A DNA stretch of 64,000 nucleotides. Origin: Raillietiella orientalis. Taxonomy: Eukaryota. The stretch's first letter is position 1, and the number at the start of each line of letters is the position of its first letter. A program made the position numbers and the translations under genes. The stretch spans positions 186,001 to 250,000 of the forward strand of contig JAYWIR010000074.1 in assembly GCA_036172245.1 (NCBI GenBank), in the 5' to 3' direction. Below the pieces are notes generated by a model. That model ran no database searches. It had not been told where the DNA came from and saw only the letters and a program-made list of their open reading frames with translations. Positions 1,640 through 57,810 of the stretch are shown in pieces.

Positions 1640-1778
1640 ACTATCCTGTGTACTGGCGATGTTGCACTATGCTACTTGTCAGATTGCACAGTTACACACA
1701 AGTGCGAGCAAAAACGCAGGCACAAAGTTGCCCGATCGTTGGCGCGGACAGACGCGGAAACACGTCTGCACTGTACGA
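416..1778 (-). mobile_element. 5' part of lineage A LINE (5'UTR + ORF1), cut by the C insertion
   Basis: Paralog of 39402-40762; GACGTGTTT motif at 1761-1766; joined to host APE sequence at ~1779. Confidence 0.9.
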
Positions 1779-2091
1779 GCGCAAGAGATCGAACGGATCT
1801 CCGGAGGGCGGCAATAGTACTGGTGTGGGAGAGCGAAAAGTTGCGCTGTCGCCTACCTGCTTCGGCCAGCCGTCGAGGCCGCGGCTCGGGGCGTGCAGTT
1901 CGACGATTACGGTCGTGTCGGCCAGCTGACTCTCAGGTGGTCCGACTCGATCGATCTGATCGTCAGGAACGTGTACGCACCGAGCGGCGCGGAGGATGTG
2001 GAAAGAGGTTTTTCTTGCTCCATCGCGACTGGCTGACCGAAGCAGGCGTGCGGAATGCTTATGTGGTTGCAGGCGATTTCAACGTTCGCCT
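1779..2091 (+). mobile_element. APE fragment of a lineage D host element (QEI...NVYAP...GDFN)
   Basis: Aligns with 45472-45801; resumes at 10426 after the B' insert. Confidence 0.85.
2076..2091 (+). repeat. 16-bp target-site duplication, left copy (ATTTCAACGTTCGCCT)
   Basis: Identical copy at 10426-10441. Confidence 0.9.
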
Positions 2092-16155: not shown

Positions 16156-18266
16156 AGGCGCTGATGCGTGAGACGGGAGATGTTCCCGCTTCTTTCCGCT
16201 CAGCAAAGGTGCGGCTCCTCACGAGAGGCGAGGATTTGCGCCACCTCAGCAACTGGCCTCCGATCACCTTGGTTAATTGGGACGTCATGTTGTTCTCGAA
16301 GTTATGAGTCGCGAGGCTGGGGAGCGTCACAAAGTCCTTGGCACACGTATGCTGTTCCGTGGCGGTCCATGGACGCGAATGTCTACTTCGCGCGAACATG
16401 GTTCGAGTTGCAGCAGAGCGTTGCAAAGCAGAGTCACGCAGCCAAAATCGCCGCTTCCAAAGGTAAGCGGCGGTGTTCAAGGCACGATGCAGCGCCAGAA
16501 GCCTTCGCAGTCGCCGTAGATTTCTGCAAAGCGTTCGGCAGCGTAAACCAGGACCTCCTACTAAAGATTCTGGGACGCCTAGATTTCCCGACGCACCTCA
16601 TCGCCTACTTGCGCTCCTGCTGGCGCCACGCGTTATGCTGTATCTCTTCTAGCGGGCGCCACATGTACGGCGTTCCCATACGGCGGGGTATCGGGCAGGG
16701 AGACAGCTTAAGGCCCCTGCTCTTCAGCATCTTCTTTGAGTTTATGCTTAGGGCGTACAGGCTGATGCTGGCCAACCAGACGAGCTCCTTCTCGGGAACT
16801 CCGGCCGTGGCCGCATATGCTGACGACCTTCTCCTGTTGCTGCCCATGTCCCCCCTGGCGTCCAGGCTTGAAGACTTCTTCGAGCACATTCGTCGGAAGA
16901 CGGACGTAAGCCTCAACAGGAGCAAGCGCTCCGTTGTTCCGGTGAACGGAAAGCGAGTTACTGCTTTCGTTGCTGCCCCTCTTTCGGCACACCAGCATAG
17001 GGTTTGTCTCCCAGCTGAGGCAGCTGTCCTTACTGCTGGAAGCCCAATCTTGGATCTCCTGCCGCCCCATGAACATTAATGCATGGCGGCAGGAATCTTT
17101 TTCATCGTGGGCAGCTTCCAAAGGAACGCCTCTTCAAGATCTTGGACGCCTGCGACTTCTCCTTAGACATAAATAGGACGAAGTCATGCCGGACAAGAAG
17201 AAGTCGGATCGCCTGACCGCCACACCACTCGCCGCAGCGCTGTGTGCCCTCAGGGCAAGCAACGAAAATTGCCTACCTGCGAAATGGGAGTTCTTCTGCA
17301 CAATAGAGGGAGTAAGTAAGCTCCTTGGCGGCTTGAAGACAAAGGAGCTGGTGGAAACTGCCACTCTTCGTAATCGGCCGAAGGGCCTGCTTCGGTGGAG
17401 TGAACATTTTAGTGTAACCACCGAAGAGATAGTGGTTCCCCCCGTTTGTCTGGACAACTCCGTGTTTTGCTTAAAATGGGAACAAGATGTGCTGCTCTTT
17501 CTACACTGAGGCTTCCACTGTAATCAGCAGCGAGGCATCGTTTCCAGAGGAGCTGCTCTGCCAAACTGTTCGAGGTGCGGAGAGATCCTGTCTTTTCCGC
17601 ACCTCTCATTGGACTGCGGTGACCTCCGTGAACTGTGGCGGTGGCTGATTTCAGCCTTTTCGCCGCAGGGATACACTGTCAATGATGTGCTGCGGCGCCT
17701 CTTCAGGAGGAATGGATTTTCGGTAGGCGCGAATGTCGCAACCATGTGTTGCATTCGCGCCATCGTGAAGGCCCGCTACGCCCTGGAGGTGTCAGCGCAG
17801 CGAAGGGAGTCTCACCGGTTTGCAGCAGAATTGATGCAACAGGCTGCTAGGTGGCCTTATCTTCGTGACAAGGTCAAAAAGGACATCGACGCATCCATCG
17901 CCGGTTTACAGACTTCTAGGAACGGCTTAATCCGGTGATCACTTCGTCCTGGAGCTTACCCATACCCCTTCTCCGCTCGCTCTGCTAAACTGCCAGTGCG
18001 ATTACTTTTATCCAAGTGCGAACCATAGCGATCCCAAAGTCCCTTGTCCCGGCGTCCACCATTGATTCCTTTTTATGTTGTTTCTCTTTGTTTGTGTTTC
18101 TAGTTCCCCCACACCGTTCTGTGTTATTCTGACCTGCGTGCCAGCAATGTTCTATTGATGCTTGTTCCGTCGTCGGCTGGGTCCATGGGTTCCAGCTGGT
18201 TCATTTTATATAATTCTTTTTGTTTATATCATATGAAATAAACGCCCAGGCGTGACCGCGTGAAAA
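16156..18266 (+). mobile_element. Lineage A-type LINE (A'), 3' part (RT, zinc finger, 3' end)
   Basis: GIGQGD, AYADD; C-terminal region similar to 29824-31000; terminus at 18237-18266. Confidence 0.85.
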
Positions 18267-18278
18267 ATCTCTTGCGCT

Positions 18279-19638
18279 CACACAGGATAGACGTGTTTTT
18301 CCATCTCTCCGCATTCGCGATTAAGCAAATTTGTGCGTGCGCTTTTGGTCGCATTTGTGTGTTTATCATAAGTCGAACCAGCAGCGTTTTGCAGCATGCC
18401 CACTGCTCAGAATGGTGTTGAGTTGCAAGCCGTTGAATCCACTCCTACTGGTCTGGAAGCGGCTGCATCCTTCGTGACGGTTTCCTCGCATTCGGTAGAA
18501 ACCTACGCCGTTGTCTCCTTCCAGGAAGCAGGAAACTGCGATGCAGAGTTGCATGCTTATGTGGCATACGGCTACATGCCCGCACTCCGTTATAAGGTCA
18601 GTGGGCCCCTTAACGGGAGGACCGGGCGTGAGCTCAACGATGAGCTCGTCTGGATCGACGTTCGGGAGGAGGAGCTCCTTGCCATTATGCCTGCGGGCAG
18701 GATGAAATACACCAAGATACGGTATAAAAACGCGGCACTTGTGCAACGCCTTCTCCGTACTCCGCTGCCCATCGGTGAAGACAAGGTCCTGCCTTCAGGG
18801 ATAAACGACCCTTTCGTCGTCCAATTGTGCGACATCGAGCCAAAAATCTCCCACCGCGATGTCGTAAGTGTACTGGCAAAGTTCGCCACCGTGCACGCTC
18901 TGTAGAGGAGACCAAATCCTTTAAAGAATTTCACCTCTGTGCACATTGGAAAAGCCTCCGCACGTATCACCTTCGCGAGCAAACGTGTTGTGCCTAAGCA
19001 GGTGCAGAATAACGGCACGGCCGTTCACCTCTGGTTCATGGCAAGGATAGCGCATGCAAGCAATGCGGCAAGAAGGGAACCGAATGAACAAATGTTTAGC
19101 TCAGACATGCCGCTACTGCAAGGAAACCGGGCATGAAATCAAAAAGTGTTCGGTGCTTGCAAAGCAAAGGGCAACAGTGGAAGTTCGTCGCGTTCAAGAG
19201 ACCAACGCACGAAAAACAGCTGATTCCAAGAAAAAACAGTGTCTGCGGAGTCTTGGCAAAAGAGCCAAGCAATACGCCGCAAAACAACCGGCGTCCCCGC
19301 CCGCAACGCCCTGAGAAGGAGAAATCACGGCAAAAAAGCCAAGGAAAAAGAGGCAGGAGGGCCTCACGCATGCCGTACATGCTCTAGTTGTCGTACTGCG
19401 AAGCATCTCTCCAAACCAGGAACGGGAAGATTTGCGAAGACTCTCGATAGGAAAGGTAGGAGAGCAGGAAGATCGCCACACAGCGAAGACTTCCAGCTCC
19501 AACCCGCTATCAATTCCCTAATCGGCAAAGTCCCACTCGAACGCAGGGTCCCCTGCGGAGGCTACAAAACCCGTAGCAAGACTAGGCGCGCTGCGTAAAA
19601 GCACGCTGCAGGCAGCCTCCCCTTCACGGACTCGAAAA
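18279..19638 (+). mobile_element. Lineage A-type LINE (A''), 5'UTR + ORF1, cut by a C insertion
   Basis: GACGTGTTTTT at 18290; ORF 18396-18905 is homologous to A ORF1 (YMPALRYKVSGPLNGR). Confidence 0.85.
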
Positions 19639-22600
19639 TTTTCCTCTAGTCAGACAAGCAGTGGGGTAAATTTATATTCCATTTTTTAAAACACATTCAT
19701 TACAGAATCACATTGACACAACATACGCACTTTACATCCCTGTGAAGTCCTTTGGGATATTACAAGTTCCGCTTTCAGGATGGGTTTCCTGATGTTTGGT
19801 CCCGGTCTTCGTCTTCAATCCTCTTCAAGATAAGTCGGTAGGTCCAGGCATGGATTCGTCTACAGATCCCGATGCCGATCTCCTTCTTGATGAATCCTTA
19901 AAAGATCTCCATCAAAGGTGCGGCTCTCCTGGCTTTCCTCATTCTCCACCACCGCACAAGAATAGCGGTGATGAAAAGAGCAATGATCGTCCTCACCATG
20001 AGATTGCAACAGCGAACATTACCATCTCCCTGAAACATTCCGATGAAGATCTCCATTACGGATCTGTTCGTGAGTCCGATGATCCTTATCGGGATCAGCC
20101 AGTCATGCAGCAATTTGGGACACGTCAAGACGTGAAGTCCCGTGTCGTTGTGTCCCCATGCCGTGCAGTCTCGATCTTCCCGTCTTCCGGTATAGTACTG
20201 CATTCGGGACCCACTCTGGATTCCTCCATGATAAAACATCAAGAGGTCACCCTGGGTGCCCAGCGGATGGTCACTGTTCCAGAAAATCGTGCCATTCGCG
20301 AGCAGGTTGATCCGGTCACTACCGTAGCGATGGGAGGCTTCCTGTAGGCCACTGATGTCACGGTCTTCTTCCCGAATTAATCTTCGGAGGTTTGTTTCGA
20401 ATACCCTCGACCACGCGAAGTCGTTGTGGTTGAGCCACACCTCGCGGGTCATGTGGGTGAACCTTCCTAACATCATCTCTAGATACCCAAGTATACGAGT
20501 GTGATGTAGGTACTCTCCTCGTTTCCACTCCTGGATTCGTTGTAGGGTAACTCTGGACCGCTAGTGGATTTAGCTTCTCGTGTCCGGCGGGACAGGAAGC
20601 ATCCAAGGGATCATCAGGACGGACCCGTCCTGCTAGAGTTTCCTACTTCTCGACACGATCTTGATTTTGTGCTTTCGCACGAGCCGTTTCTTCCTCGTCC
20701 AGCATGGTTCGATTTTTTTCCATTCGCCTGCTCGGCCTAGCAGCGCAGTCATCAGGCTTTTCGAGTTGTTCAACAACAACGCGTAGGCCCTGGCCGCCGC
20801 ATTCGGCTGGTCATCCCAGTTAGTGGCAATGTTGAGGATGTGTCGCTTATCCATGATTTCTATGGAGTGTGCAAGCGACTTCATCCCGGAAACGCCTTCT
20901 TCCCTGGGAAGACACAGGGGCTTTAGTCGAACTCTTGAGGTATAGTGGCTCCACAGTGTTTTTCCCTGCAGCTTGTCGATCTCCCTCGTAATGTTCTTGT
21001 TCATCCTCGCGAAGGCCGCTCCGGAGAGCATTTTTGAAGGAGTACTCCGTTCTATATGTTGTCCTTTCGCTTCATTCCAAGGTCCGTTCGGGTGTACTTG
21101 GCTTCTTCCTTGGCCATTTTCCCTAGGATCCTGGTCCACAATACCTTGGACGAAAGTCGTAGCCAATGTAGACACCCAGCAACTTGGCATTGTCCACCGT
21201 TCGGAATCCTCTATCCGCTAGAGCGAAGAGATCGAGGGTTCCAACGGGAAAGAGCTGCCTTTCTGGACGTTGATCTTCAGACCCAGGTCTTGATCCATCA
21301 GGTCTACCACATCCAGAAACGCTCGTTGATTTCTCTCTCCCTTAATAAAAAAGAGTAGATCATCAGCGTATGCCAGATGGGTAAGACGCTGGCCATCGTT
21401 TGTTATGCCTTGCAGTCGTCCGCTCTTTTCGATAAAGGACGACAACGCCTCCATGTAGATAACGAACAGCATCAGACTAAGCGAATCGCCCTGCCGGACT
21501 CCCCGTTCCATCCGGATTGCTGCCGTTTCCTGGCCGTTCATTTTGATTCGGCACTTCTGGTTCTGGAGTACCACCCTGACGAAGTTGCTGAAGTGTTTCG
21601 GAAGGCCTACCTTCTCCAAAACCTTCAGCAGCATCCCATGGTCGATGGAGTCGAAAGCCTTCTCCATGTCAGTGAACACCAGCGCCAGGTTCTCGCCGAC
21701 GTATCGGTTTAGTCCGACGGTGGCCTGGGCACACTTGACATTGCCTGACATGTGACGTCCAGGGACTGCACACGTTTGGACAGGAGAGATGAGCATCGAC
21801 TTGATCCTGCCTAAGCGGTAGGACAAGATCTTCGCCAACCACTTGGCATCGTAGTTCAGGATTGAGATTGGCCTCCATTAAGCGATCTGGGTTAAGTCGC
21901 CTCCTTTTGGTAAGAATCTCATCCTACTCTCGTAGAAGGAATCAAGTACTCTGCCTTCTTCTCGGATGCAGAGGGTCAACTGTTGGAACAAGCGCAGGTA
22001 GACATGCAGGTACCGCTGATAGTGCGTGATGGGTACACTGTCATGGCCCGCCGCCAAATCCTTGAGCAGTTTTCCAAAAGCAGTCTTCACCTCGTCTTCG
22101 GAAAATTCCTTCTCCAGTCTGTTTCGCTGGAGGTCGTCGGTCCACTTCTCGAGATACCTCAGAAAAGCCTGTTGACTATTGCGACAGAGATGTTGTCGCC
22201 TAAAGTGTTTCGTGTAATGCCTGTGAAAGGCATCCACGATGTCCTCGGGCGACTGTCGCTCTTGACCATCGTACGAAATGCAGAAGATATCTGCTGCCAG
22301 ATTTCTCTTCTCCTGCACGCCGACTCCCCCTTGTATGTTTTTGAAGACTTTTCGACTCTCGTACTGATCGAAGTACTTTGAGAGTGATCGATGTTGGATG
22401 TTCAGCTTCCGGTACGCCTCCTGACTCGAGCGCCTATCTCCGAATTGTATATGTGCAAACAGGTGTATCCTGGGTTCCAAGCTGTCCCAGTCGGCGACTC
22501 TTCTGATTTTTGTGGTCTTCAGAATCGTCTCCTGTACCTTTTTATGTCCAGGATGTGTCTCGAACCAGGAGGGCATGCTGATGAGCGCCGCCCTGGAGCC

Positions 22601-27660: not shown

Positions 27661-29490
27661 TGACACGCTCTCCTTCACCAATGAAAGTGGGGGCATCCGC
27701 TCCCACGGAATCCGGGGCACTTGCCCTATCGGAATCGGGCGCAACCGCCCCCTCGCAAACCTCTTCGCCATTGGCGAGGAGTTGGAGTGACGTCGTTGCT
27801 GCACCATGCTTGGATGCAGTAGCGGAGCAGACTGCCTAAAAGGACAGCGGCTACAAGCCTTCTCTGACCTATAAGGTAGGCAGTGTGTTTGATGAAAAAA
27901 TTGCACGCTCCTTCGAAATGGAGCTGCAAAGGTTGAACGTGTGAGAGGAAGACCTTTTAGGCCTATCCGTCCTCAGTGGTGGCCAGCGAGTTGAGCTGAC
28001 ATGCAAAGAGGAGAGTCCGGCGCAGCGACTGCTGAACACCCCTCTTACGGTGGACGGCCGCAGGATCTTCCCTGTGACGGAGTACCGCTCAGTCGTGGTC
28101 CACCTCATGGGCGAATTACTCCGAATGGACAAAACTAGCGTCCATGATGAGTTATCGAAGCATAGTAGTCTGCACGCGTATTGGGCCAAACCCAATGTCT
28201 TCCGAACGTACGGAAGGCTATTCAGTGGAATGGCAGCAGTCCGCGTCACCCTACCAGAAAATGGTGGGCTTCCACACAAACTGAATATCGGCGAAGAAAT
28301 AGTCGATGTTTGGTACGTGGCTAAGCCCAAGTATTGTGGACATTGCAATGCAACAGGGCATCTAAAAAAGCGGTGCCCTAACATCCAATGCCACTTATGT
28401 GGAAATAAGGGCCACATCCGTAAGGTGTGCAAAAGAAGAGAAATATCGTCCCCATCCGCTGCCAAAAAGGCAAAGGGGAAACGCACGGGAGAGACGCATA
28501 AACAGAAACAGGCTGTAAACCCCCAGACGCCAGTCCCTATGCCCTCAAAGCAAACGTCGGTTGAGAACAATTCCGACGACGCTGGTGAGGGCGAAGGCTG
28601 GCAGACGGTACAGCCCAGAAGAAAGCCCAGGAGTCCCGAACGAAGCGCGGAAAAAACAAAAACGCAGCGCGAAAATCCGTGCCGCGAGAAAGTTCGCGAT
28701 TGGTCGGTAAAATTAGAGCGTGCGGAGGCACTCCATGCCTCCATCAGGGGAGCAATCTGCCCACTTGCGTCCGCCGAAGCCGCGACGGTCGATGACGAAT
28801 CTTCTGGGGAAACAGAGGGGGAACCGCGCGCCGCGCTCGACGCGATCGAAGGGCCGCCTTCCAGCAGGCGGTGGAAGAACTCGAGGCAGAACTGCAAGGC
28901 CGTGAGAAGAACTTCCGAAAAGGCTGACGAAGGCAGGCCGCGAGGAAGGTTCCGGATGCACGTGACGCCCAACCGGATGCCAGAATTGCGTCCTCATTAA
29001 CATAGGCGCTACCAAACAAGACAAGACGCGAGTCCCAGAATCCCAGAAGGCGCATAGGGATCAAGAAGGAGGAGCATCAACTGGCACCCGAGGGGGAAGC
29101 CGGCAACGTAAGAGCCGAGAGTAGGAATCTCATTTCTCGACACCGTGCAGCTGGCGACCCCCATGGAGGAGGATGTCCAGGTGGGTGAACCCCTACTTCC
29201 TCTACAAGGCCCCGACGACGACTCGTACTCCATGGAGGAAAGAGAAGCGATGCGCGGCGAACCCCCTCCTCTTAGCGTCCCGCCCGACAAGGTGGCGGGA
29301 GCCCCATTGCCAATTTCCCAGGATTAACACCTCGAATCGCCTGTTGATGTAGGATCCGCGTAACCTGCTGGAACGTCAACGGGCTGCGCGATGACGGCAA
29401 CAGGCGGGACACAGCCGACACCATGCGTGACTTCGACCTGGCACTCCTGCAGGAGATCCACGTGATAACCGCGGAGAACGACCAGAAGAT
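27661..29490 (+). mobile_element. Lineage E host, part 1 (ORF1 + start of APE)
   Basis: Knuckles CGHCNATGHLKKRC and CHLCGNKGHIRKVC in ORF 28050-29000; WNVNG...LQEIHVITAE up to 29490. Confidence 0.85.
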
Positions 29491-35991: not shown

Positions 35992-36004
35992 GACTTCTCC
36001 TTTC

Positions 36005-40762: not shown

Positions 40763-41492
40763 AGCGCAGGATATCGAGAAAATCGCAGGGTGTCGTTTGT
40801 TTTGGCAATGCGGCTCTCGCAACACCTGTGAAGTCGCGTTTTTTATGAAGCCAGCAGTCGCTTCCATCGTCAAAAACGTACGATTCGACAGGGACAGTCA
40901 TGTTGGCCAGCTTATCCTCAGGTGGTCCGACTAGCTCGATTTTGTCTTGCCTAATGTGTACGCTCGGAGAGGAGGACGCGGGTACGGACAACGTTCCCGT
41001 TTCCTCGAAAGCCTGAAGCGCGACTGGCCGGCGGATACAAACGTACGCAAGGCACATCTGATCGGAAAGGATTTCCACATCCGCCTGCTCTCAGGTGTGC
41101 CTTGCAGGCAAAAAGACGCAAGCAATGAGTTGTGCGCCGCTATGCGTACGCGCAACTAGCTAAGGGACCTACCGGAAATGGCTCAACGCGTAGACCGCGT
41201 CTTGCTTCACGCCGACCTGTGCTCAAGGGTTGGCAGACGAGGGAAACTTCCGTCGACGCCATCGGACCACTTTCGGTTGTTAATCGAGATTATGCCACGC
41301 GACCAAGGGCCACGATCCAGGGCGTGGCGCATGCCAGGGGACTAAACGCGCATCTTCGGTGCGGCGGAACATCCCGTCAGTTCTTGAGAGGCGTCAACCT
41401 CCGCAACCTCAAAGACTGGGACGGCATGAAGGTCTCGGTCCGCGACTTCTGCGAGGATTTCCCTTTGTACTGCCTGCCCAGGGAATTTGCAG
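40763..41492 (+). mobile_element. Lineage E host, part 2 (rest of APE up to the PRGFG-equivalent linker)
   Basis: Picks up where 29490 stops; collinear with 63050-63773. Confidence 0.85.
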
Positions 41493-43599: not shown

Positions 43600-46500
43600 G
43601 CTCTAGGGCGGACGTGTTTTCTCGTTGCTCCTCGGGCCAGAAAGTCGTCGTGTGGTTCGGGAAGCCCGCTGGGCCAGGAAGCAGCGGCAACGCCGCCCCC
43701 AGAGGCGATATAGAGCCAGGGGGCGGCGGCAACGTCGCCTTTAGAGGCGATGGAGGTGGGGGCATCCCCCCCACAGAATCGGTCCCCGCTGCAGCGCGGG
43801 TGTGGATCGCCGTTGTGTCGGCGCCATCGCCTGCAGCCGCGGCGGAATTGTCGGCCTATGTAGAGAAGTACAACCCCTCATTGTTCTACAAGGTAGGCAA
43901 TCTATATTCTTTAGAGAGCGCAACCGCCTTCTCGAAGGGCATGCGCGCTCTCGATATGAAAGAGGAGGAGCTTAGCGCTATGACCATCCGCAGCGGGGAT
44001 CAGTACGTTGAGGTCATCTGCAAACATGCAGAGCTGGCCCAACGACTGCTTGAAACCCCCGTTGTGATAGGAACACGCAGGCTCCTCCCTATTACGGCGG
44101 ACCGCAGCATGGTGGTCCACCTCTTAGGTGTTACCGTGCGGAAGCGCAAGGAACAGGTTCGCGCCCAGTTGGAGGAATACGGAAAGGTCCACGCGCAGTG
44201 GAAGAAAGTTAGTCCTTTCGAGGACTACAAGGGGCTGCAACACGGTCTCACTGCTGCGCGCGTGAGCGTTCGGGAGGGCTGCACTCTTCCCCACAAACTG
44301 GTGGTCGAAGGCGAAACCGTCGACCTCTGGTATGTGGGGAAGCCGAAATACTGTGGCTTCTGCAATACGTCGGGCCACCTCAAAAAGAGGTGTCCTAATG
44401 TGCAGTGCCAAGTATGTGGCACAATGGGCCACACGAGGAAGGTGTGCCCAAAAGCAGCAGTGCGGGTGGTTGCCAAGAGAAACCTTAAAAAACGCGCCCG
44501 GCTTCTGCAGAAAAGGCTGGCGGCGAAAGCTGCCGCGAAGGCTGTGCCACCCGCTCCCAAGACCCAGGCCGCACCCCAGACCCCTGCGACCAACGCCGAA
44601 AAAGTTGAGGCAGCCGGACAGGAGACTGGTTGGCAAGTGGCAACTGCCAAAAAATTAAAGAAGGAGAGGAGGATGGAAAGGAAAATCGCCTACCAACAGA
44701 AGAAGAAAGAGAAGGGTAGCGCGATAATTAAAGAGTGCAGCGTCGTTGTCGAACGCGTTCTCGATGTTGCCGAACGCTGCCGGAAATAACTCGCCGCTGC
44801 CGACGAGCTCCGTTCTGTTGACACAGTCAACAGCGAGGAAAGCGAGCCGGCGGCGGCGTCCGTCATCCACACCACCATCGATGACGTAGCCTTCGCGCGA
44901 GCCGCGGAGGAGCTGGCAGCCTCGTTGCAGCCATAACCCTCCAAGGCTGGCAAGAAGGCCGTAAGGCGTCCGGCCTCCCCTCAGGAGTCCCTTACTTCCA
45001 CCCCCGAGGTGGATGCCGGAAGCGCAGCCTCCGTTTCCACGGCAAAGCGCAAGAAGGCTTACGTAAGTCCACAAAGCCAAGGAAGCTCGTATTCCCCGTC
45101 GAAGGGGAAGAGATGGGTTCCGCAAGCGAGGGTGCCATGAGCGTGGGAAACTCTCGGGACCCGTCGCCCGGGAGACTCCCACGCGCGGACACGGAGGGGA
45201 TGGAGGGGGGGTGGAGGCCGCACAGGTGCCTCAGGTGCCTGAGAAGGCAGAAACCCCCATGGATACCCCGCCCGCCTCGCAAGAGGAAGGCTCCCCACAC
45301 CTGAATCTTCCCAGCAGTAATGCCGGAAATCTCCTGCCGCCGTCGTCTACGCAACGCCGTTTGGAACGTGAACGGCATCACAGACCCCGGCAGGAGACCA
45401 GACATGGCCGCCCTTCTGGAGTCCTACGACCTCGCGCTGCTGCAGGAGATCCACGTGATCTCTGCAGAACAAGCGCAAGAGATCGAACGGATCTCCGGAG
45501 GGCGGCTACGGTACAGGTGTGGGAGAGCGAAAAGTTGCGGTGTCGCCTACCTGCTTCGGCCAGCCGTCGAGGCCGCGGCTCGGGGCGTGCGGTTCGACGA
45601 TAACGGTCGTGTCGGTTAGCTGACTCTCAGGTGGTCCGACTCAATCGCTCTGATCGTCACGAACCTGTACGCACCGAGCGGCAAGGACCTGATGAACAGG
45701 AGGGCGAGGAAAAAGCTTTTCCTTGCCCTCCGGAGAGACTAGCTGACCGAAGCAGGCTTGCGGAATGCCCATCTGGTTGCAGGCGATTTCAACGTTCGCC
45801 TGAAACCAGATGGGCAGAATCCCGAGCGTGACCTGGTCAACGAGGTGTGCATGGCGGTGCACACCTGTAACTTGTTGGCCAGTGCACCAAGGATGGAAGA
45901 CAGCATTGACCAGGTGTTTCTTGACGAGCACCTGTGCCCTCGCGTGGGCAGGCGCGGCAAGTTACCGTGCGAGCTGTCCGACCATCGCCCGCTAGTCCTC
46001 GGGATCCATTAGCGCGACAGGAGCCCCCCCTTGTCAGCGTGGCGTCTCCCAGGGGACTGGCTGAAGCTCTTAGACGCGGCGGAACATCTCCGCACATTCA
46101 TAGGGAGCTTCAGGCTGCGGACACTCAGGGATTGGGACCGCTTCAAGCGGTCGGACTAGGAGTTCTGCGATCAGTTCTCTCTGCCCCGCCTACTCACGGG
46201 TTTTGGGACCGGGGTCCGTAACAAAGGAGCCTACCTGCAGGCCCGTCGTTACGCCAGGACCCCCGACATGCGCAGGCTGGCAGAATACAAAGCGGGAGCC
46301 GAGAGGCAAGCCTGGCAGTCCGGATCGGCCAGCTTACTGGATGATCAGGGCCATGAGCATTCGGCACCTGCTCAAATCCGCCGCCTGCTGCGGAGTTACT
46401 ACTCCTCCCTGTATTCCAGGGCACCTCCAGAGAGGAACGTTTACGACTCCTGCTTCAGGAAGGCGCTTCAGCGATCGGAAAGGAGCAGAGAAAGACCCTC

Positions 46501-48125
46501 GACGAGCCTTTCACGATGGACGAGATCCTCTCGGCCATCGAAAAGCTCAAGAGGCGAGAGGCTTCAGGGGAGGACGGCCTGCCCGCGGAGTTTTATCAAA
46601 CTTTCGCGGCTGAGCTTACCCCCCTGGTACAGCAACTCACCTTGCTGATACGCGAAACAGGTGACGTTCCCGCCTCGCTTCGTTCGGCAAAGGTGCGGCT
46701 GCTCCCTAAGGGAGGAGATCTGAGGAGCACGATCAACTGGCGTCCCATCACAATAGTGAATGCGGACGCCAGGTTGCTAGCAAAGGTTTGGGCAGAGCGT
46801 TTGGGACGGGTTGCCAACATCTTCATCAGCCCAGAACAGACATATGCTGTTCCCGGGCGAAGCATGGAGGCGAACCTGTTCCGCGCTTCCACCTGGCTAG
46901 AGCTCCAACATGAAAGGAGCTTGGTGTGCAGCCGGCATTCCGGTGCGTGCGCCGGCAGGGGGTTGGATGGTCGGGAGGGGGAGGGAGCCCTTGCGGTCGC
47001 AACCGACTTGCGGAAAGCATTCGATTGCGTCGACCAGAATCTCCTTCTGGAGCTTCAGGATCCCTTGCGCTTCCCGGCCTCATTAGTGGCCTATCTGCGC
47101 TCCAGCTGGCGCGACGCGCTTTTCAACGTTACATTCAGCGGGCAGACCGTGCACGGCGTGCCGGTGCGGCGTGGAATCCCGTAGGGAGACAGCCTGAGCC
47201 CCTTACTCTTCAGTACCTACTTTGAGTTGGTACTGAGAGCGTACAGGGGAACTCTGGCGCATCTGCCGCACGACTGTGCCGGTACGCCGGCCGTTTCAGC
47301 ATACGCGGACGACCTTCTGCTGCTGCTCCCTATGTCCACCCCGGCTTCGGCGGTCGAGGAGTTCTTCGACCTTCTGCATCGGGGAACCGAACTTCCGGTG
47401 AACAGAGCGAAGTCTTCCGTGATGCCAGTTGGTGCGGCGTGGGCAGGGCAGCAGGACTGGGTCCGTTTGGGGATCCCCACGGTGAGGTATTTCAAGTACC
47501 TTGGTGTGCCGTTGCGGGACTACTCCCCTGCAAAAGCGTGGTCCGGCTTCCTCCAAAAAGTGGAGACGGCGATCGGACCGCTCCAAGGCGGCAGGTTTTT
47601 CTTGCCTGAACTGGGTGCAGTTTGGAACACGTTCACGGCTCCTCTCCTCCGCCCCTTGCTTTTTGTTTGCCCCTCCACAGAGAGAATAAAAAAGCGGACA
47701 AATGACCTCCTTGGTATCGCCCTTTGGGGCAACGGGAGGGCCCGAGATTGCTTAAAGGACTTGTGCGCTCCTCGTCGGGATGGTGGTCTGGGCCTCCTGA
47801 CGCTGGAGCGGCTTTAGCTTCAGCTCCAGTTCCGCTTGTCGGCATTCGTTCCAGAGTTGTGGTGCACCTGTTGGTGCATCCCTGCACGTCTCCTTCTTCA
47901 GCAAGCCACCGGCAAGACGGGACTGACGTCGTTTCTTGCACTCCGTCGCCGCGTGAACCGATGCGGACTCCAGCTATGGAGGGTGGCTGCGCTGTATCGA
48001 AAAAACCCAGGATTGCTCACCTGTCGCCTGTTGAACGGTAGCGCCTGGTTGCAGGAAAGTGTTCGAACGTGGGGACAGTTCGGCATGCAACGCTTCCAAC
48101 AGGAACGAAGGTTCCTGTTTGGGGG
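43600..48125 (+). mobile_element. Lineage D LINE (D1), 5' end intact, 3' end deleted
   Basis: GACGTGTTTT at 43611; knuckles CGFCNTSGHLKKRC and CQVCGTMGHTRKVC; ORF2 from 45320 with WNVNG, GDFN, DLRKAFD, AYADD. Confidence 0.9.
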
Positions 48126-49584
48126 TTGCACGAGGGACCTTTGTTGAAGTCTTCTTTCCTTCATTACGGTTCCTCACTTCGCGTGGCGCCGTAAATGGAG
48201 ATTGTGCTCCATGGCCATCTTTGAAGCCATTAGCGTCTTTGGACGGGAGCACTTTCGATGGCTCCGACACGCTCGTCATGGACGCTGCCTTCGGAAGGGC
48301 TTTTAATCCCTTCGTTGGCATGGCATCCGCGCCAGTCGAGAGCTTGCTCTCCGATTGCGACGGCGTGAGATTTTTCTCCGCTTTCGCGGTGTTGGATCGC
48401 GACGCGGATTTTTTTTTTCCGACTTTCGAAGTCGACACGGCACAACCCTTCTTACCCGATTTGGGCTTCTCAGCCACTGCAGGAGGTGAAGGAATGGATC
48501 TGACGGTACTGGAAGTGTCCTTACCGCCGTTGTCCATTGGCGTCCCCGCCGGTTGCTCGAACTCCGAGAGAGCCGGGCGTGCTTGGGAAGGACAGCTATT
48601 GCGCCTAGGGGGACTTACCATTGTTTCGGATTCCCCGCACCCTTTCTTTTGCGGCTCCCCTGCCGCGAGAGGGGGCGCGCAGGGCTTCGCGTGCGAGGTT
48701 TCCTGCTGCTTTGGGGCGACATTCCGCCTCGCGATTTTTCGGAATTTCTGCCGTGGGGTCTCCAGGTTTTTCGCAGATTTTTTCTTTTTATCCGCGCTTT
48801 GTTTTTTAAAATTGAGCTCCGCGGCTGCCTTTTTTCGCAAAAGATCCGGGCAATTTTTCAATTGAAGCCCGGATAGTTTGCAATAACGGCATTTTCTAGA
48901 GGGGCATTTATCCAAACAATGCTCCTCCTTCCCGCATTGCTCGCACGTTCTTACTTTGCCCACGAACCACAGGTGAACGACCGTGTCTTTCACCTGTAGT
49001 TTGGTGGGCAGCAGACGGCGGTCCGGCATTGTAAGCCGGACTCCAGCGACTCCGCTATGTATGGACGGGAAGTCCTTGAGGTTGCTACGCATCCTCCACA
49101 GCGCATGGACCGTGGCGAATTTCGCCAATGCGTTCCGAATATCAATATCGCAGATTTCCGACTCGATGTCGAAAATCTCCGCCACAAATGAGTCGTCCTT
49201 GGCGGCCGGGAAGACCTTCTGGCCACGGATCGACAACGGGTCAGTTCATCGTTGAACTGATTTCCGTCGCGCGCAGAAAGAAAGCCACTCACCTTATATC
49301 GGAGAGCAGTTCTATAGCCTTGGGCTACGTATGCCCGCAACTCCGACTCGTCGAGTGGTTTCCCTTTGACGGCTGCTGTGGCAGCAACGTCAGCAAAACT
49401 CCTCTCCAGTGTCGAGAAAGACGAAGTGGAGGCGGCCGTCGGTTCCGCGATTGCAGATCCGAATGCTGTTCCTACAACTTGGGTAGCTTCGGGTTGGGTC
49501 GACATCGTCGTCAAAATGTACGACGCCAAGATGAACCGGATGAAAGCACAGAGACGAAAGCGAAGAAAAACACGTCCGCACTCG
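48125..49584 (-). mobile_element. Tandem lineage B copy (B2): 5'UTR + partial ORF1
   Basis: Highly similar to 53927-55499 apart from a deletion near 49240. Confidence 0.9.
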
Positions 49585-49592
49585 ATTGAAAT

Positions 49593-49622
49593 TTATCACC
49601 CGGTCACGCCGGGGCGTTTATT
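49593..49622 (-). terminator. LINE 3' terminus: AATAAA + CCCGG-CGTGA-CCGGG hairpin + short A tail (best-preserved example)
   Basis: Minus strand AATAAACGCCCCGGCGTGACCGGGTGATAA; homologs at other element ends; function inferred. Confidence 0.7.
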
Positions 49623-49905
49623 AATAATAATAAACTGGTCAGGGACAATGTCCCCAACCAACAGAACGACAGAGAACATAGAAAAATTACCGCCACGCAG
49701 GCCTGGTAAACAAACCGCTCGCAGCGTGGGGGGAATGAGGGGAAACAAACAAAAATCAAAAACTGGAGGGAAGGGAAAAGGTTTTTTGGTTAGGCTCCGT
49801 ACTCACGGGGATTTAAACGATGAGCACCTCAAATGTTCCGGAGCCTATGGGGACGCGGGTGTAAAAAGAAAATACAAATTTAGTTTATGGAGGGTAGGGC
49901 AATGA

Positions 49906-52900
49906 TCACCGGGTTGGCCGCTGATGAGGGTGTGTAAACCGGCGGTGTATTGCGGCGAAATTCCTCTTTGTCTCCTCTATCAAATGAGGCCATCTAGCGG
50001 ATGCTCCCATGTAGAAGGATGCTTTGCTGATTACCTCTTGGTACTGTCCGTTGATTACCAACGCCTGGCGGACGGAAACTATCGCGCGTATGCAACCGAT
50101 GGTTGCAATCCTTGCGCTTACTGAAAGCCCGCTCGGCGTGAAGAATCGTCGCAGCAAGTCTCTTGCGGTGTCCACGGGATGCAATAGTGCTGTTGCCAGC
50201 CTACGCCACAGTCCTTGTAGGACACCGCAGTCCAGAAGTAGGTGCGGAATCGACTCCTTCGATCCGCACCGAACGCAGTTCGCAGACGCAAGTCCCCCGG
50301 AGTCACGATGCCAACGCTCGTTGCACTGAAAACCCCAGTGAACGAAAAGCAGCACGGCTTGTTTCCAAGCAAGGGGGAGCAGCGAACTGTCCATACACTG
50401 TGGAGGGACTACAAGTTCTTCGGGGGTGACAGCAAGTTCTTCTGCCCACCGGAGAAGTCCCTTTGCAGTAGCACGAGGAGTGGCGGCGTCCGCCAACTCA
50501 CTTGTCTTCCAGGTGCCAAGGAGTTTGGTTCTTCCCGCTATCGTGCAGGAAACCTCCCACCTCGCCGGTTGGTAACTGTCGTTTCTTGCCCTGAGGGCAG
50601 ACAGCGCTGCGGCAAGAGGCGGGGCAGCCAGGGTAGAAAACTTCACCTCGTCCTGCAGTACTTCTTCCAAGGATCGTGGAAAAAATTGGCGCAGGGGGCG
50701 AAGATCTTCAGGGCGTATTCCTTGGAACGCCGCCCAGGATTCAACAGACTCCTGCCGCCAAGCTTCAAAGTTCATTGGGCGGCAGGAGATCCAAGAGTGT
50801 GCTTCCAGAAGTGCGGTCAACTGCCGCAATGGAAACCTGAAACCCCGCTTCCTGTATTGAGTGCCCGGCAAAAGCGAGAGAAATCCTCCGCTGCCGGCGC
50901 ATCTCCGCAGGAGAATGCGAGCTGGCACACACAGGGGGGAGGTCCATAGCTGGGCACACAGTGCCAGCAGTCGGAACTGCACCTGCAGTCCGATTCGCTC
51001 CATTGTCAGGATACCCAAACCAGCATCCCGACGCGGAGCTGACAAATCTTTAAGGCGGATCCTGGATCTCGCCGGACCCCAGAGAGCGTTCCTGAGCAGG
51101 CGCTTAGCCCGCTGTTTTGCCGCATAGGGGGGGTCCAAAACAAAAAACAGGGGCCGGAGGAGGGGGGCCACAAAGGTGTTCCAAATAGTCGCCCGTTCCT
51201 GCAAGGTAAACTTGCCGTTAAAGAACGGGCTGATGGCCAACTCTGCTTTCTGAAGACAGTCCGCCCACGCTCCGGCTGCGCCGAAAGCGCCCAACGGAAC
51301 GCCAAGGTACTTAAAGTACCCGCCCGTGGGGATCCCCAGGCGGATCCAGTCGGACTGCCCCTCCCACGACGTACCCACAGGAACGACCACGCTCTTCTCT
51401 CTGTTCACGCTCACGCCCGCTCCTCGACGAATCAGGTCGAAGAAATCCTCGACACTGGACGCCGGGGTGGACATGGGGAGCAGAAGAAGCAGGTCATCAG
51501 CGTAGGCGGCCACGGCAGGCGTTCCCGGGCAGGAGCTTGGCAAGGGAGACAGCGTCAGCCTGTATGCTCTTAGCACCAACTCAAAGAAGATGCTGAAGAG
51601 CAACGGGCTTAAGCTGTCGCCCTGTCGGATGCCCCTACGAACGGGAATACCATACGCGCGGCAGCCGCTAAAAGTGATGCAGGTTAGCGCGTGGCGCCAG
51701 CACGCGCGCAAATACAGCAGGAGTTGCGCCGGGAACCCAAGGCGTTCCATAAGCTCCAAAAGCAGCTTCTGGTTTACGCAGTCGAACGCCTTGGGGAGAT
51801 CGACCGCGACCGCCAAGGCACCTGGCGTTCCCTCCTGCCGTCGGCGCCTGTTCTTTTTGCCTGCGGCAGTGACTTTCGCAGCAGCCTGGCTTTGCTGCGC
51901 CACAACTTCCTGCAGCTGCATCCATGTACGCGCGAAAAGGATGTTCGCCTCCATGGATCGTCCCGGAACCGCGTAGGTTTGTTCCGGGCTCACCACAGAT
52001 TCCGCGATTCTTCCTAACCGCGCGACTCACAGCTTGGAAAACAACTTGACGTCCGAGTTCACCAAGGTGATCGGACGCCAGTTGTTAAGTTGGCGCAAGT
52101 CTCCGCCTTTCGGCAGGAGACGCACCTTCGCTGAGCGGAAGGAATCAGGGACATTCCCGGATTCACTCATCAGCGTCGCGAGTTTCAGCATCAAAGGAAT
52201 GAGCTCCACTGCAAAGCACTGATAAAACTCTGCAAGAGCCCATCCTCGCCTGGCGCCTTTCGTCTCTTCAGCCCAGCGATGGCGGACGAAAATTCATCCG
52301 CCGTGAAGGGCTCGTCGAGACGTTCGCGTTCCTCCTCGCCGACAACACGAGCATCCTGAGACAGGAGTATCTCAGAAAGAATATCCTCCGTCGGGGAATC
52401 CGCGTAGAGCGAGGAGTAGTAGCGTCTCACAATGCGGCGTACTTCGGCTGGGGCCGAACATTCCTGGCCTTTGTCGTCCAACAGGCATGCTGCTCCGGAC
52501 TGCCAGACCTGGCGCTCGGCCCTCGCCTTGTACTCTGCGAGACGCCCGACATCCGCGCGTCTCGAAAACGTGCGGGCCTGCAGAAAGTCTCTCCTGTTGG
52601 CCACGCCCTCTCCGAAACCGCGTGGAAGCCGGTGCAAGGGGAATTGGCAGCAGAACTCGCGGACAGATCTTTTGAGATCGTCCCAGTCCGCAAGTTCTTG
52701 AATGGCAAAGCCTCGGAGGTATCCACGTAGATGCTCCGCAGCCTCCGGTTGGCTAAGCCAATCTGCCTGCATCCTCCAGTTTTGCAACGGAGGCCCCCTG
52801 CCTGGCGGAAGGATCTCAAACTCCAACCTGTGGTGGTCAGAAAGCCTAGTCAACAATCTTCCTCTCCTGCCCACACGCGAATGCAGGTTTTCATCGAGGA

Positions 52901-53498
52901 AAACGTGATCGAGCGATCTTTCCATTCCAGGTTCGCTGACCATCAAGTTGGCGGCGTGCACGGACGCGCACATCTCGATGGGCAGCGCGCGTTCCCTCGG
53001 GCGGCTCCAATCGTCGGAGAGCAGGCGGACGTTGAAGTCCCCAGCGACGAGGTGCGCCACTTGGAAACCGGAGTTATTGAGCCAGTGGCTCTGCACCTCA
53101 CCAAAGAAAGCTACTCTTTCTTCGAGGTAGCGAGAGCCACTCGGCGCGTAGACGTTCGTAACGACGAGATCGATGGACTCGGACCACTTGATGACAAGCT
53201 GGCCTATCCGTCCGTTGTCATCGAAACGAACACTGCGCACCGCTTCCGCCATTTTTCCTCTTACGAGGAACGCGACGCCGCACGTGTGTGCGCCGCCGCA
53301 CCGCCAATGTAGCGTTCCGCCTGCGCGCTCCTCGATTTCGGCTGCCTGCTCGTCGGAGATTACGTGAATCTCCTGCAGCAACGCGAGGTCGAAGGGGCGC
53401 AGGGCGTTGGCTACTAATCGCCTCTTCTCGTCGTTCTGCAGTCCGTTCACGTTCCAACACGTTACGGACAGACGACGAGAAGACGCGATTCCCCGCAT
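49906..53498 (-). pseudogene. B1 ORF2 (~1200 aa APE-RT-zinc finger); one frameshift (~52235) and one TGA (52027-52029)
   Basis: ORFs 52191-53498, 52027-52209 and 49906-51996 join into one protein: WNVNG, LQEIH, NVYAP, GDFN, LDH, SDH, WRPITLVNSDVK, GIRQGD, YADD, KYLG, CVRC...H...C. Confidence 0.93.
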
Positions 53499-53503
53499 TA
53501 CTG

Positions 53504-55444: not shown

Positions 55445-55480
55445 GATGAAGCGGATGAAAGCACGGAGACGAGAGCGAAG

Positions 55481-55491
55481 AAAAACACGTC
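55481..55491 (-). promoter_or_regulatory. Conserved 5'-end motif GACGTGTTTTT (candidate internal promoter element)
   Basis: Recurs close to the 5' end of ten elements in the window; function inferred. Confidence 0.55.
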
Positions 55492-57810
55492 CGCACTCGA
55501 TTGAAATCTCCCGCTATCAGGTGAGCCTTTCGTACATTGGTATCCGCCAGCCAGTCACGCTTCAGGGTTTCTAGCAGCCAGGTGAGGTAGCAATACCCTT
55601 GTTTGCCGCTGGGGCAATGCACGTTTTTGACGATTAGGTCAATCGATTCGGACCAGCTCAGAATCAGCTGACCGATCCGAGCGTCCTCATCAAACCGCAC
55701 GCCCTTTACGGCAGCGTCGATGGCTGGCTTGACAAAGAACGCGACCCCGCAGGTGTTGCGGACGCCGCACCGCCAATACAACCGACCCCCCGCGATCGTG
55801 TCGATCTACTGGGCGTCTGCCGCGGTGATCACATGGATCTCCTGCAGCAGGGCCAGGTCGAGCTCACGCAGGGTGTCGGCCGTATCTTGTCTGTTGCCGT
55901 CGTCGCGCAGCCCATTGACGTTCCAACAGGCCGCGCGAATTCGACGGCGCCTGGCGAGCCCAGCTGTTAGCCCTTGGAAAACGGCGATGCGGCGTCCGCC
56001 ACCTGCTGGGGCGGGACGCTAGCAGGAAAGAGAAAGGTGACAGGTACTGAAGGCACCTGTTCCTCCTCCTCCATCGGTGGCGGCGCGTCGGCCGGATCAC
56101 CGGGAGGTGTAGTCACGCCTATCTGTTCGCCCTCCTCCATGGGTTCGGGCTGCTCAGGTATCGCGACTGCAGGGAGGACTTCGCCCCCTGCTCATGTCCT
56201 CCATGGGGGTGGCCGACTTGACGGCTTCCGGGTGTGGGTGTTCCCCCTCTGGGATTTCCATGCTGCCGCTTCCTTCCAGCTTTTCCTCCTCGCTGGTAGA
56301 GGGGAGGCGCCTCCTGGGTTTCTGGGACTTGCGTCCCTACTTCCTGGGGGGTGCCTCCGAGGAGAAGGATGAGCTTTTGGCCCCCAGGTCGCACTCACCT
56401 GCGGGGGCCTTCTTCGTCGGAGCTGACCTGCGTACGCCCTTGCGCGACGGGGTTTCGCACTCGGCGAGCGTTGCTGCGAGCTCCTCCTCCGCTTTCTCGA
56501 AGCCCGCGTCTTCGCCAGCGGCGACGGTTGCCGCGGGCTGCTCCGCGACCTTATCGAGGGCGGCGTCATCGCTGTTTTGCGGACATTGCCGCGGGCGGCC
56601 TCGGCAGGAACGGCTAAACTTTCCAGTGCCACCGAGCATTCGCGGAGTTGTTTCTTTGAAAGCGGTGCAGCTTTTTTCTTTTTGCCGACAGTTTTCTTCT
56701 CCGACTTTTCTCCTGCCATCACTTTCTTTGTTTTTCCTTTTCTGGCCTGAACCAGCTGTTAACCCTTCTCCATCCCCGCGTCCACGGGAGCTCTTTCCTC
56801 CGACGCCTGCACGGGAGGAAAGGAGGCTGTCAGTTGGGAACGGCCATTTTCGCGAACTACTCTTTCTATTAGCTTTCCACGTTTTCCCTGCGCCTTTTTG
56901 GCGGCAGGGGGCACCGGGATAGGGCGCTTTGGGCACACGCGCCGAACGTGACCCTTTTCCTCGCATAGGAGGCACACAATGTTCGGGCACCTTTTTCGTA
57001 GATGCCCTACTGCATTTCAGTAGCCACAAAATTTGCGTTTCACCTCTTACCAGAGGTCCACCGCTTCTTGGCAGACCTCCAGCTTGTGGGGAAGCGCACC
57101 ACCCTTTTTTACGGTGATACGCGCCGCAGCTCGACCTCCGAAAATGCTATTGTAGCCTTGGAAAATCGTGGACTACGGCCACAACGCGTGCACTTCTGCG
57201 TGCTTTTCTAACTGCTCGCGAACCGCTGACCTAGTCATGCGATTGGAGATCCCAGTGAGATGGACCACCACCGAGCGGTCCATCGTCACCGGCAAGATCT
57301 TTCAACCATCAACGATCAGCGGGTCGGTGATCAGGCGTCGGGCAAAGGTGATATCTTTGCATACCACCTCGACCCGCTGCCCGTCGCTGAAGACAGAGAG
57401 GCAGTTAGGATTTTTTTCGAAGATATTGGCGTTCTGCAGCGCCTTCTTAAAGGCGTGTGCAGTTCGCGCATCAAAAAGGTTGCCTAACTTTTAGACTAGC
57501 GAGGGTTTATACCCCGCTTTCTTGTAGGCTTCCATCTCAACCATGGCTTTCACGCTAGGCGCGGCCACCATGGCGCTCCATGACCTCGGCGTCGCCGGGG
57601 ACGATTCCGGGGCGGATGCTTCTGATTCAGTAGGCTGTGGGGACGAACTAGCCTACCCCACGCCTACTTATATCGCGGTGTCCTCTGGCAACGCTGCCAT
57701 CGGACACCGACGATGTGCACGCACAAACCACTCAGCAAAAAACCACTCGCCTTGCCACGCAGGCGGAGCGCAAAAAAAGCACGTCTTCTCTCCACAGAGG
57801 GGATTTGGAG

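What the first reader, a model, noticed from the sequence alone, without database searches (positions are those of the whole stretch)
18237..18300. Head-to-tail tandems separated only by a copy of the target
A' 3' end - ATCTCTTGCGCT (18267-18278, reverse complement of the D APE site at 45472-45483) - A'' 5' end. Likewise B1 - ATTTCAAT - B2 (49585-49592) and mini-F - 13-mer - F (57798-57810). Repeated insertion at a regenerated site is a known signature of site-specific non-LTR elements such as R1. A scrap of host APE stranded between two A-type elements is hard to explain otherwise.
Basis: partly seen in the sequence, partly recalled or inferred. Interest (0 to 1): 0.75.

Follow-up and report, generated by a model that had tools for sequence, protein, structure and literature searches.

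The report
Stacking LINEs rewrite their landing site
Three families of jumping genes (LINE retrotransposons) that land at fixed spots inside other LINEs' genes sit head to tail with one copy of the landing site between them, likely because each new copy lands in front of the last, and the front copy of the site often differs from the host's, likely because it is partly copied from the jumping gene's own RNA.

Summary
Confirmed. All three junctions are real. The spacers are target-site duplications (TSDs) of L1-like LINEs that insert at fixed codons of sister LINEs. Genome-wide, 11 of 53 A 3' ends, 20 of the 100 listed B ends and 7-9 of 90 F ends are tandem junctions. The upstream copy is less diverged at 10 of 12 independent A junctions, so arrays likely grow at the 5' TSD, as published for R1. 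The number of A tandems (15 seen, 11-15 expected) fits regenerated sites being about as good as empty ones. New twist: three host subfamilies carry diagnostic 12-mers. The 3' TSD copy follows the host (0 of 20 foreign in host D3), but the 5' copy is foreign in 17 of 23, increasingly so towards the element. The spacer is therefore not a fixed element terminus, nor a pure host scrap. Best reading: the RNA carries its donor's target bases at its 5' end and anneals them to prime the second strand. Repair after re-nicking and template jumping remain rivals. This scan noted such tandems before on other DNA of this genome; the asymmetry was not in the notes I saw. New variant of a known kind.

The parts
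16940..18266 (+). A': 3' 1.3 kb of a lineage-A LINE (end of ORF2, 3' UTR, AATAAA plus terminal hairpin, no poly(A))
   Evidence: 80% to positions 4538-5871 of a full-length A
18267..18278 (+). 12-bp spacer ATCTCTTGCGCT = A target (D1-type)
18279..19639 (+). A'': 5' end and ORF1 of an older lineage-A LINE, cut by an antisense LINE from about 19640
45472..45483 (-). empty A target in the endonuclease codons (A-Q-E-I) of a D1 host LINE
1778..1789 (-). 12-mer at the 5' junction of another A copy, D1 left flank
40763..40774 (-). 12-mer (ATATCCTGCGCT) at the 5' junction of an A copy in a different host endonuclease
29479..29490 (-). 12-mer (ATCTTCTGGTCG) after the 3' end of an A copy in a further host; shows the 3' copy follows the host
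49593..55499 (-). B2: full-length lineage-B LINE (ORF1; APE-RT-zinc finger ORF2), upstream and younger member of the B tandem
49585..49592 (-). 8-bp spacer ATTTCAAT between B2 3' end and B1 5' end
55500..55507 (-). outer 5' copy ATTTCAAT, in the GDFN codons of the F host
48125..49584 (-). B1: 5' end and ORF1 of the downstream, older B copy, truncated
57811..58392 (-). mini-F: 582-bp internally deleted F copy (5' ~270 bp joined to 3' ~315 bp), upstream member of the F tandem
   Evidence: (89.8% and 88.6% to F ends)
57798..57810 (-). 13-bp spacer between mini-F 3' end and F 5' end
58393..58405 (-). outer 5' copy of the F 13-mer, next to the host's right-hand coding half
41480..41492 (-). outer 3' copy of the F 13-mer, after an F 3' end at 41493 (assignment to the same F copy is inferred from the host frame)

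Best explanation
These are arrays of site-specific L1-like LINEs separated by one copy of their target, likely built one insertion at a time at the 5' copy of the target, which is likely written in part from target bases carried at the 5' end of the element's RNA. Shown: each lineage sits at one fixed codon position in sister LINEs; arrays read host-left / site / element / site / element / site / host-right; upstream members are mostly less diverged; the 3' copy of the site matches the host subfamily while the 5' copy is increasingly foreign towards the element. Inferred from the standard TPRT model: the APE nicks the bottom strand at the left edge of the 12-mer, so the host's own bottom strand primes cDNA and the 3' copy is faithful. 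The transcript begins a few bases upstream of the element, inside or before the donor's 5' 12-mer. The cDNA end anneals to the cut top strand, which primes the second strand and takes over the donor's bases from a variable point on. Left flank plus 12-mer survive at the 5' junction, so that junction is a target again, and the next insertion freezes the previous 5' copy as the spacer.
For: Counts: A 11 of 53, B 20 of 100 listed (121 in all), F 7 clear and 2 probable of 90 3' ends are tandem. Empty sites have diagnostic 12-mers: T at position 6 in 63 of 64 D1, C in 21 of 23 D2, ATCTCCCGGGCT in 31 of 34 D3. Host-derived share at positions 6, 7, 9 is 0.85, 0.95, 0.92 for the 3' copy and 0.51, 0.31, 0.16 for the 5' copy. 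In D3 hosts 17 of 23 5' copies but 0 of 20 3' copies carry D1/D2 bases (p 2e-7; 13 of 19 after merging near-identical junctions, p 3e-6). The C76 array reads ...CCTGCGCT / A / ...CCCGCGCT / A / ...CCCGGGCT with D3 flanks on both sides, and its upstream copy is younger. Upstream copy less diverged at 10 of 12 independent A junctions, 1 tie, 1 against (sign test p 0.012-0.039); same direction in 4 of 5 B arrays, 1 tie. Poisson expectation 11-15 extra copies against 15 junctions seen. The published R1 and R2 models supply both steps (PMC2718515, PMC11331408).
Against: No transcript was seen, so the 5' leader is inferred. A copies do exchange sequence after insertion: the C32 and C26 copies are patchworks of young and old segments, and some insertions have left and right flanks of different host types (e.g. 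C18:3672021 with C18:3683624). Only C113 is both uniformly young over its whole length and mismatched, and at one base. One truncated A is preceded by 37 nt of host right flank of another subfamily, which suits a 3'-tail jump better. The age proxy is inflated for the old subfamily, which has few sampled relatives, and compares a 3' with a 5' segment. All counts come from exact patterns, are lower bounds and include duplicated segments. The asymmetry is well tested only for lineage A.
Confidence: 0.55

Rival explanations
1. Arrays grow by sequential insertion into an ordinary staggered-cut TSD, as in ancestral-type R1. The 5' copy is altered afterwards, because that junction stays a target, is re-cut without insertion, and is repaired by gene conversion from another A 5' junction.
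For: Explains the 5'-only asymmetry, since only the 5' junction keeps the left flank. Patchwork copies exist, and the first 500 bp of C32 A1 are young while much of the rest is older. One D1 junction (C147) has a D2-type base 7 nt outside the 12-mer.
Against: Position 9 of the 5' copy is almost independent of the host (6 of 23 against 4 of 40, p 0.15), which would need nearly every copy to be converted. Foreign 5' copies occur in 7 of the 11 copies with the least diverged 5' ends, not counting C105, whose two copies match. Tracts almost never pass the near flank.
Confidence: 0.22
2. The RNA carries the 12-mer at its 3' end by read-through. On reaching the RNA 5' end the RT jumps to an RNA 3' end, copies the 12-mer and anneals it to the top strand; if it runs on, a tandem forms in one event.
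For: C74:54179: a very young truncated A preceded by the 12-mer and 37 nt of D1-type right flank inside a D2 host. R1 transcripts are reported to carry 3' flanking target (PMC2718515, section read). End-to-end template jumping by R2 RT is recalled, from no call.
Against: One-event tandems would have members of equal age, but most differ. All 11 full-length 5' ends met without selecting for the junction are precise, which would need tails ending exactly at the 12th base. The mosaic type CCCGCGCT occurs whole at 5' junctions in D1, D2 and a fourth host, simpler if inherited from a 5' junction.
Confidence: 0.13
3. Tandems are mostly later duplications (unequal exchange, segmental duplication or assembly redundancy) of one or a few founding dimers.
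For: C63/C92 junctions are identical and C32/C89 nearly so. One B junction shares five variant sites between C33 and C43. The large D. melanogaster R1 array is described as amplified from dimers (10.1101/158386, passages).
Against: Junctions pair different subfamilies, carry different spacers and sit in different hosts. Members of one array differ in age and are closer to copies elsewhere than to each other. A 12-bp TSD is a poor substrate for unequal exchange (knowledge).
Confidence: 0.06
4. The spacer is simply part of the element's consensus terminus.
For: All 20 listed B spacers are ATTTCAAT. The proximal bases of the 5' copy do travel with A, and F 5' copies are more uniform than F 3' copies.
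Against: The same 12-mer lies in frame in 121 pattern-matched uninterrupted host sites (one is the 5' side of a truncated A). The 3' copy follows the host, and A in other hosts is followed by other 12-mers. The distal part of the 5' copy follows the host too.
Confidence: 0.04

Closest known systems
R1 tandem arrays of Drosophila (Stage and Eickbush 2009, PMC2718515; McGurk and Barbash, 10.1101/158386)
   Same: APE-type site-specific LINE; copies separated by one TSD; proposed to form by insertion into the TSD at the 5' end of a resident copy. Melanogaster-type R1 transcripts are inferred to carry upstream target bases that anneal for second-strand priming.
   Different: Target here is coding DNA of sister LINEs, not 28S rDNA. 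Proteins match human L1 best. In melanogaster-type R1 the leader gives a 9-bp target deletion and few tandems, whereas here the inferred leader overlaps the TSD, keeps its length and tandems are common. Polymorphic hosts let the origin of each TSD copy and the order of insertions be read.
Tx1 group: Tx1 in Tx1D, Tx1-Mar and SINEU-3 in Mariner-N4_AMi, Tx1-8_Crp and Tx1-4_AMi in LTR elements (Kojima 2015, PMC4494074)
   Same: L1-group LINEs that target other transposons; SINEU-3 tandems sandwich a TSD and are read as sequential insertions; a non-autonomous partner shares the target, as mini-F does.
   Different: Those targets are DNA transposons or LTR elements. Here several LINE lineages target conserved codons of each other. 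The passages I read report no 5'/3' difference between TSD copies and no dated polarity.
R2 with 5' rRNA leader (PMC11331408)
   Same: Target sequence at the RNA 5' end lets the cDNA anneal upstream and gives precise 5' junctions.
   Different: R2 has a restriction-like endonuclease, a ribozyme-made 5' end and no duplication of the shared sequence. No Rfam ribozyme match at A or B 5' junctions.
Zepp clusters of green algae (PMC3446292)
   Same: Islands of nested LINEs.
   Different: Zepp nests in its own kind. Base-exact targets in several sister lineages and TSD-spaced tandems are not in the passages read, and a centromere role was not tested here.

Membership tests
L1-group APE non-LTR retrotransposon | ORF1 plus ORF2 with APE, RT and C-terminal zinc finger | tested here: met
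   Pfam Exo_endo_phos, RVT_1, weak zf-RVT in B2; zinc knuckle in two ORF1-region frames of other copies
L1-group APE non-LTR retrotransposon | Closest characterised proteins are L1 ORF2 | tested here: met
   APE-linker part hits human L1 ORF2 (E 1e-12) and no other retrotransposon protein up to E 10; RT part hits R2 and L1 about equally; homologues mostly 22-31% identical, named ones from plants
L1-group APE non-LTR retrotransposon | Target-site duplication of about 7-20 bp | tested here: met
   12, 8 and 13 bp for A, B, F
L1-group APE non-LTR retrotransposon | 3' poly(A) tail (typical, recalled) | tested here: not met
   Ends are AATAAA, a short GC hairpin and AA, directly joined to the TSD
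Tx1 clade | RT phylogeny groups with named Tx1 elements | not tested
   No named Tx1 protein came from any call; no tree with references was built
Tx1 clade | Sequence-specific insertion into repeats or other transposons | tested here: met
   53 of 53 A 3' ends with an intact D1/D2-type 12-mer continue into host flank or another A (the pattern itself demands the 12-mer). F is looser: many of 90 ends have unrelated flanks
R1 elements | Insertion into 28S rDNA | tested here: not met
   Targets are LINE coding codons
R1 elements | Tandems spaced by one TSD, added at the 5' TSD (works-like feature) | tested here: met
R2-type leader annealing | RNA 5' end contains upstream target sequence | tested here: inconclusive
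   Inferred from donor-type 5' TSD copies; no transcript data
R2-type leader annealing | HDV-like ribozyme at the 5' end | tested here: inconclusive
   No relevant Rfam match up to E 1 in 4 junction loci; Rfam misses many such ribozymes (knowledge)
Zepp-like centromeric LINE clusters | One cluster per chromosome at the centromere | not testable with these tools
   491-contig assembly, no chromatin data; sites crowd on small contigs and near contig ends

The most novel reading that the evidence does not exclude
Lineage A does not merely duplicate its target: its RNA carries the donor's target bases and overwrites the landing site at every insertion. The 5' TSD copy is then a heritable part of the element that converts divergent host sites towards a preferred version, keeps the site as good as an empty one, and leaves each spacer of an array as a record of the previous donor. 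The same may hold for the whole guild of LINEs that target each other here.
Probability: 0.45. Interest if true: 0.75.

Novelty: new variant of a known kind. Interest (0 to 1): 0.6.

Why it matters
How LINEs cut the second strand and prime second-strand synthesis is a long-open step. Most targets are uniform, so the two TSD copies cannot be told apart. Here three host subfamilies mark the target at three positions, and dozens of natural insertions show that the two copies have different origins, with a gradient across 12 bases. That makes leader annealing, template jumping and later repair separable by RACE or a marked-element assay. It also warns that mismatched TSDs are not a clean clock. 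The arrays show how a LINE-only island can keep feeding itself: an occupied site stays about as good a target as an empty one.

Tried and rejected
RNA evidence: no RNA holder was listed for a full-length A, so no reads were laid. Ribozyme: Rfam gave only one chance-level match in 4 junction loci. Mimicry of the host's right flank by the element's 5' end: by eye 5 of the first 11 bases agree for A and no likeness for B or F; rejected. Position 3 of the 12-mer as a donor marker: it also varies in 8 of 121 empty sites; dropped. Inheritance of the 12-mer type along the element tree: the 560-bp 5' tree is poorly resolved; only a loose link with one SNP was seen by eye; inconclusive. One search is biased, because its first letter excludes the D left flank; not used for counts. 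My first impression of TSD asymmetry came from patterns of unequal strictness and was redone with equal degeneracy. The last printed line (16/21 against 0/19) was preset and does not match the duplicates found; one search replaces it. B has too little target variation to test asymmetry. For F, 5' and 3' patterns may pick different subfamilies, so only the C5 array counts, as one case with its middle unseen; its outer 5' end was not found in the stretch fetched. Whole B and F arrays and flanks of D3 3' junctions were not fetched, so those pairs rest on pattern rows and spacing. Literature: 8 searches found R1, Tx1/SINEU, R2 and Zepp precedents and listed no paper on donor-templated TSD copies in LINE-targeting LINEs; the library lacks most subscription papers, and no supplements were read.

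Full report
Setting. The window is G000:C74:186001-250000 of a 210-Mb eukaryotic assembly and is filled with nested LINEs. The intact copy B2 has an ORF1 and an ORF2 with APE, RT and a weak C-terminal zinc finger. Its APE-linker part matches human L1 ORF2 best among solved structures; database homologues are mostly 22-31% identical, with one unnamed protein at 61%. The lineages end in AATAAA, a short GC hairpin and AA, without poly(A).

Observation. The 12-mer at 18267-18278 lies between an A 3' end and an A 5' end. It recurs exactly, reversed, at 45472-45483 inside uninterrupted D endonuclease codons and at 1778-1789 before another A. The B 8-mer (minus strand) is in the host's GDFN codons and also stands before B2 at 55500-55507. 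The F 13-mer has two outer copies, 58393-58405 and 41480-41492, across which the host frame continues. Mini-F is a 582-bp internally deleted F.

How common. Of 53 A 3' ends with an intact D1/D2-type 12-mer, 11 continue into an A 5' end and 42 into the host's right flank. The union gives 15 A tandem junctions, 13 after merging two duplicated pairs. For B, 20 of the first 100 listed of 121 ends are tandem, with triples on C33, C43 and C105. For F, 7 of 90 are clear and 2 probable, judged on four bases except in the window and on C5. Reversed controls gave 0. With 121 empty sites and 55-65 occupied ones, a Poisson model in which an occupied site stays a full target expects 11-15 extra copies. These are pattern counts and lower bounds.

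Order of insertion. Terminal branches and private differences are smaller for the upstream member at 10 of 12 independent A junctions, tied on C32/C89 and reversed on C63/C92 (p 0.012-0.039; the C33:2440392 junction was too short to date). The C96 triple rises from 0.4-1.8% to 3.1-3.6% to 6.9%. In the window A' has 9.1% and A'' 14.6%. B arrays agree in 4 of 5, with one tie; B2 has 0.5% and B1 8.7% in the first 400 bases, and B2 is closer to copies elsewhere than to B1. This is what insertion into the 5' TSD predicts, the model given for R1 in PMC2718515 (passages plus the sections on R1 junctions and the R1 model). SINEU-3 tandems are read the same way in PMC4494074 (passages), and 10.1101/158386 treats double insertion generally (passages). 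The proxy is inflated for the sparsely sampled old subfamily. Some junctions were copied later: two A pairs and one B junction shared by C33 and C43.

Is the spacer an element terminus? Not a fixed one. Empty host sites fall into three subfamilies with diagnostic 12-mers: D1 ATCTCTTGCGCT (T at position 6 in 63 of 64), D2 ATCTCCTGCGCT (C in 21 of 23) (typed by one flank base), and D3 ATCTCCCGGGCT (31 of 34). The 12-mer after A's 3' end follows the host's right flank: host-derived share 0.85, 0.95 and 0.92 at positions 6, 7 and 9, and still other 12-mers follow A in other hosts.

The twist. In D3 hosts only 6 of 23 keep the D3 12-mer and 17 carry D1/D2 bases, against 0 of 20 at D3 3' junctions and 0 of 34 in empty sites (p 2e-7; 13 of 19 after merging near-identical junctions, p 3e-6). 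The host-derived share of the 5' copy falls from 0.51 to 0.31 to 0.16 towards the element. Seven insertions or arrays have D3 on both sides at the spacing of a bare A, an A with its usual nested LINE, or two As, with a foreign or mosaic 5' copy and a D3-type 3' copy (C26, C33, C46, C74, C76, C87, C209; two of them, C33 and C209, are probably one duplicated locus, and the middles were not fetched). The C76 array shows the steps in order: D3 12-mer at the 3' end, a one-base mosaic as spacer, a two-base mosaic at the 5' end. One F array on C5 has a spacer that differs at 5 of 13 bases from its 3' outer copy.

Mechanism. Shown: fixed targets, TSD-spaced arrays, polarity, faithful 3' and mosaic 5' copies. 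Inferred: a bottom-strand nick at the left edge of the site, and an RNA that starts within or just before the donor's 5' 12-mer, so that the cDNA end anneals to the cut top strand and supplies the proximal bases. Annealing of upstream target bases is inferred for melanogaster-type R1 (PMC2718515) and shown for R2 templates (PMC11331408, passages), but there it yields a deletion or no duplication of the shared bases. I give sequential 5' insertion about 0.9 and the leader about 0.55 overall. Against it: A copies exchange sequence after insertion, so repair after re-nicking can mimic the pattern; and one truncated A carries 37 nt of foreign right flank at its 5' side, which points to 3' read-through and jumping. 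No transcript was seen.

Verdict. The tandems are real and their origin is a known R1-like process, here in L1-like elements that target sister LINEs. Notes of this scan report such tandems elsewhere in this genome; I count them as leads only. The different origin of the two TSD copies is the part I did not find in 8 literature searches or in the notes shown. Zepp clusters (PMC3446292, passages) are the nearest picture for the island as a whole. Tx1 membership was not tested by phylogeny. New variant of a known kind; interest 0.6.

Noticed in passing
window 18279-18295, 55486-55499 (-), 57780-57797 (-), 43603-43616: All lineages seen have GACGTG within the first 8-18 bases of the 5' end; possibly an internal promoter element that could set a start upstream of the element (likeness to the Drosophila DPE is recalled, from no call).
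   Followed up: no
window 18237-18266, 49593-49622, 57811-57841, 61289-61318, 10396-10425: Divergent lineages share a 3' end of AATAAA, a 5-bp GC hairpin and AA, with no poly(A); likely the RNA signal for TPRT (z -2.5, -0.6, -2.4 for three copies).
   Followed up: partly
L099:1190-1270 (G000:C74:54179-54245): Very young 5'-truncated A preceded by the 12-mer, 37 nt of D1-type right flank and 17 unassigned bases inside a D2 host; suggests 3' read-through RNA and a template jump.
   Followed up: partly
G000:C32:13939-25763 (L058-L059) and C26:621732-627756 (L086): A copies that are patchworks of young and old segments; the two C32 array members have opposite ages in their first 500 bp and in the rest. 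Gene conversion, array collapse or assembly chimera.
   Followed up: partly
window 19640-22900, 3427-6486, 36000-39400: A more distant LINE lineage (RT about 25-30% to B2) sits antisense in ORF1 of A and kin, and adds about 5.6 kb to many A copies genome-wide.
   Followed up: partly
L046 (G000:C129:7093, -) and L043 (G000:C96:90153, -): 3' ends of other lineages followed within about 12-19 bases by a GACGTG-type 5' end; probable tandems of further lineages.
   Followed up: no
G000:C11:4612646/4618181, C60:632035/637572, C50:560/5839: Empty D sites about 5.3-5.5 kb apart in the same orientation; the host lineage probably forms tandems too.
   Followed up: no
rows on C3, C6, C7, C12, C18, C21, C28, C36-C38, C52: Many F-type 3' ends have flanks unlike the LINE linker target, often C-rich; possibly mini-F-like copies with relaxed targeting.
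   Followed up: no
G000:C63:545001-585000 and C92:233001-264330; C63:508690 and C336:4660; C53:212394 and C53:315455: Identical or near-identical duplicated stretches: segmental duplication or redundant haplotypes in the assembly.
   Followed up: partly
G000:C18:3672021/3683624, C40:244914/253324, C91:111232-128067: A insertions or arrays whose left and right flanks belong to different host types; likely ectopic recombination between A copies.
   Followed up: no
P0004: One unnamed JGI protein is 61% identical to the B2 RT; all other hits are 31% or less, so the group is nearly unrepresented in the database searched.
   Followed up: no
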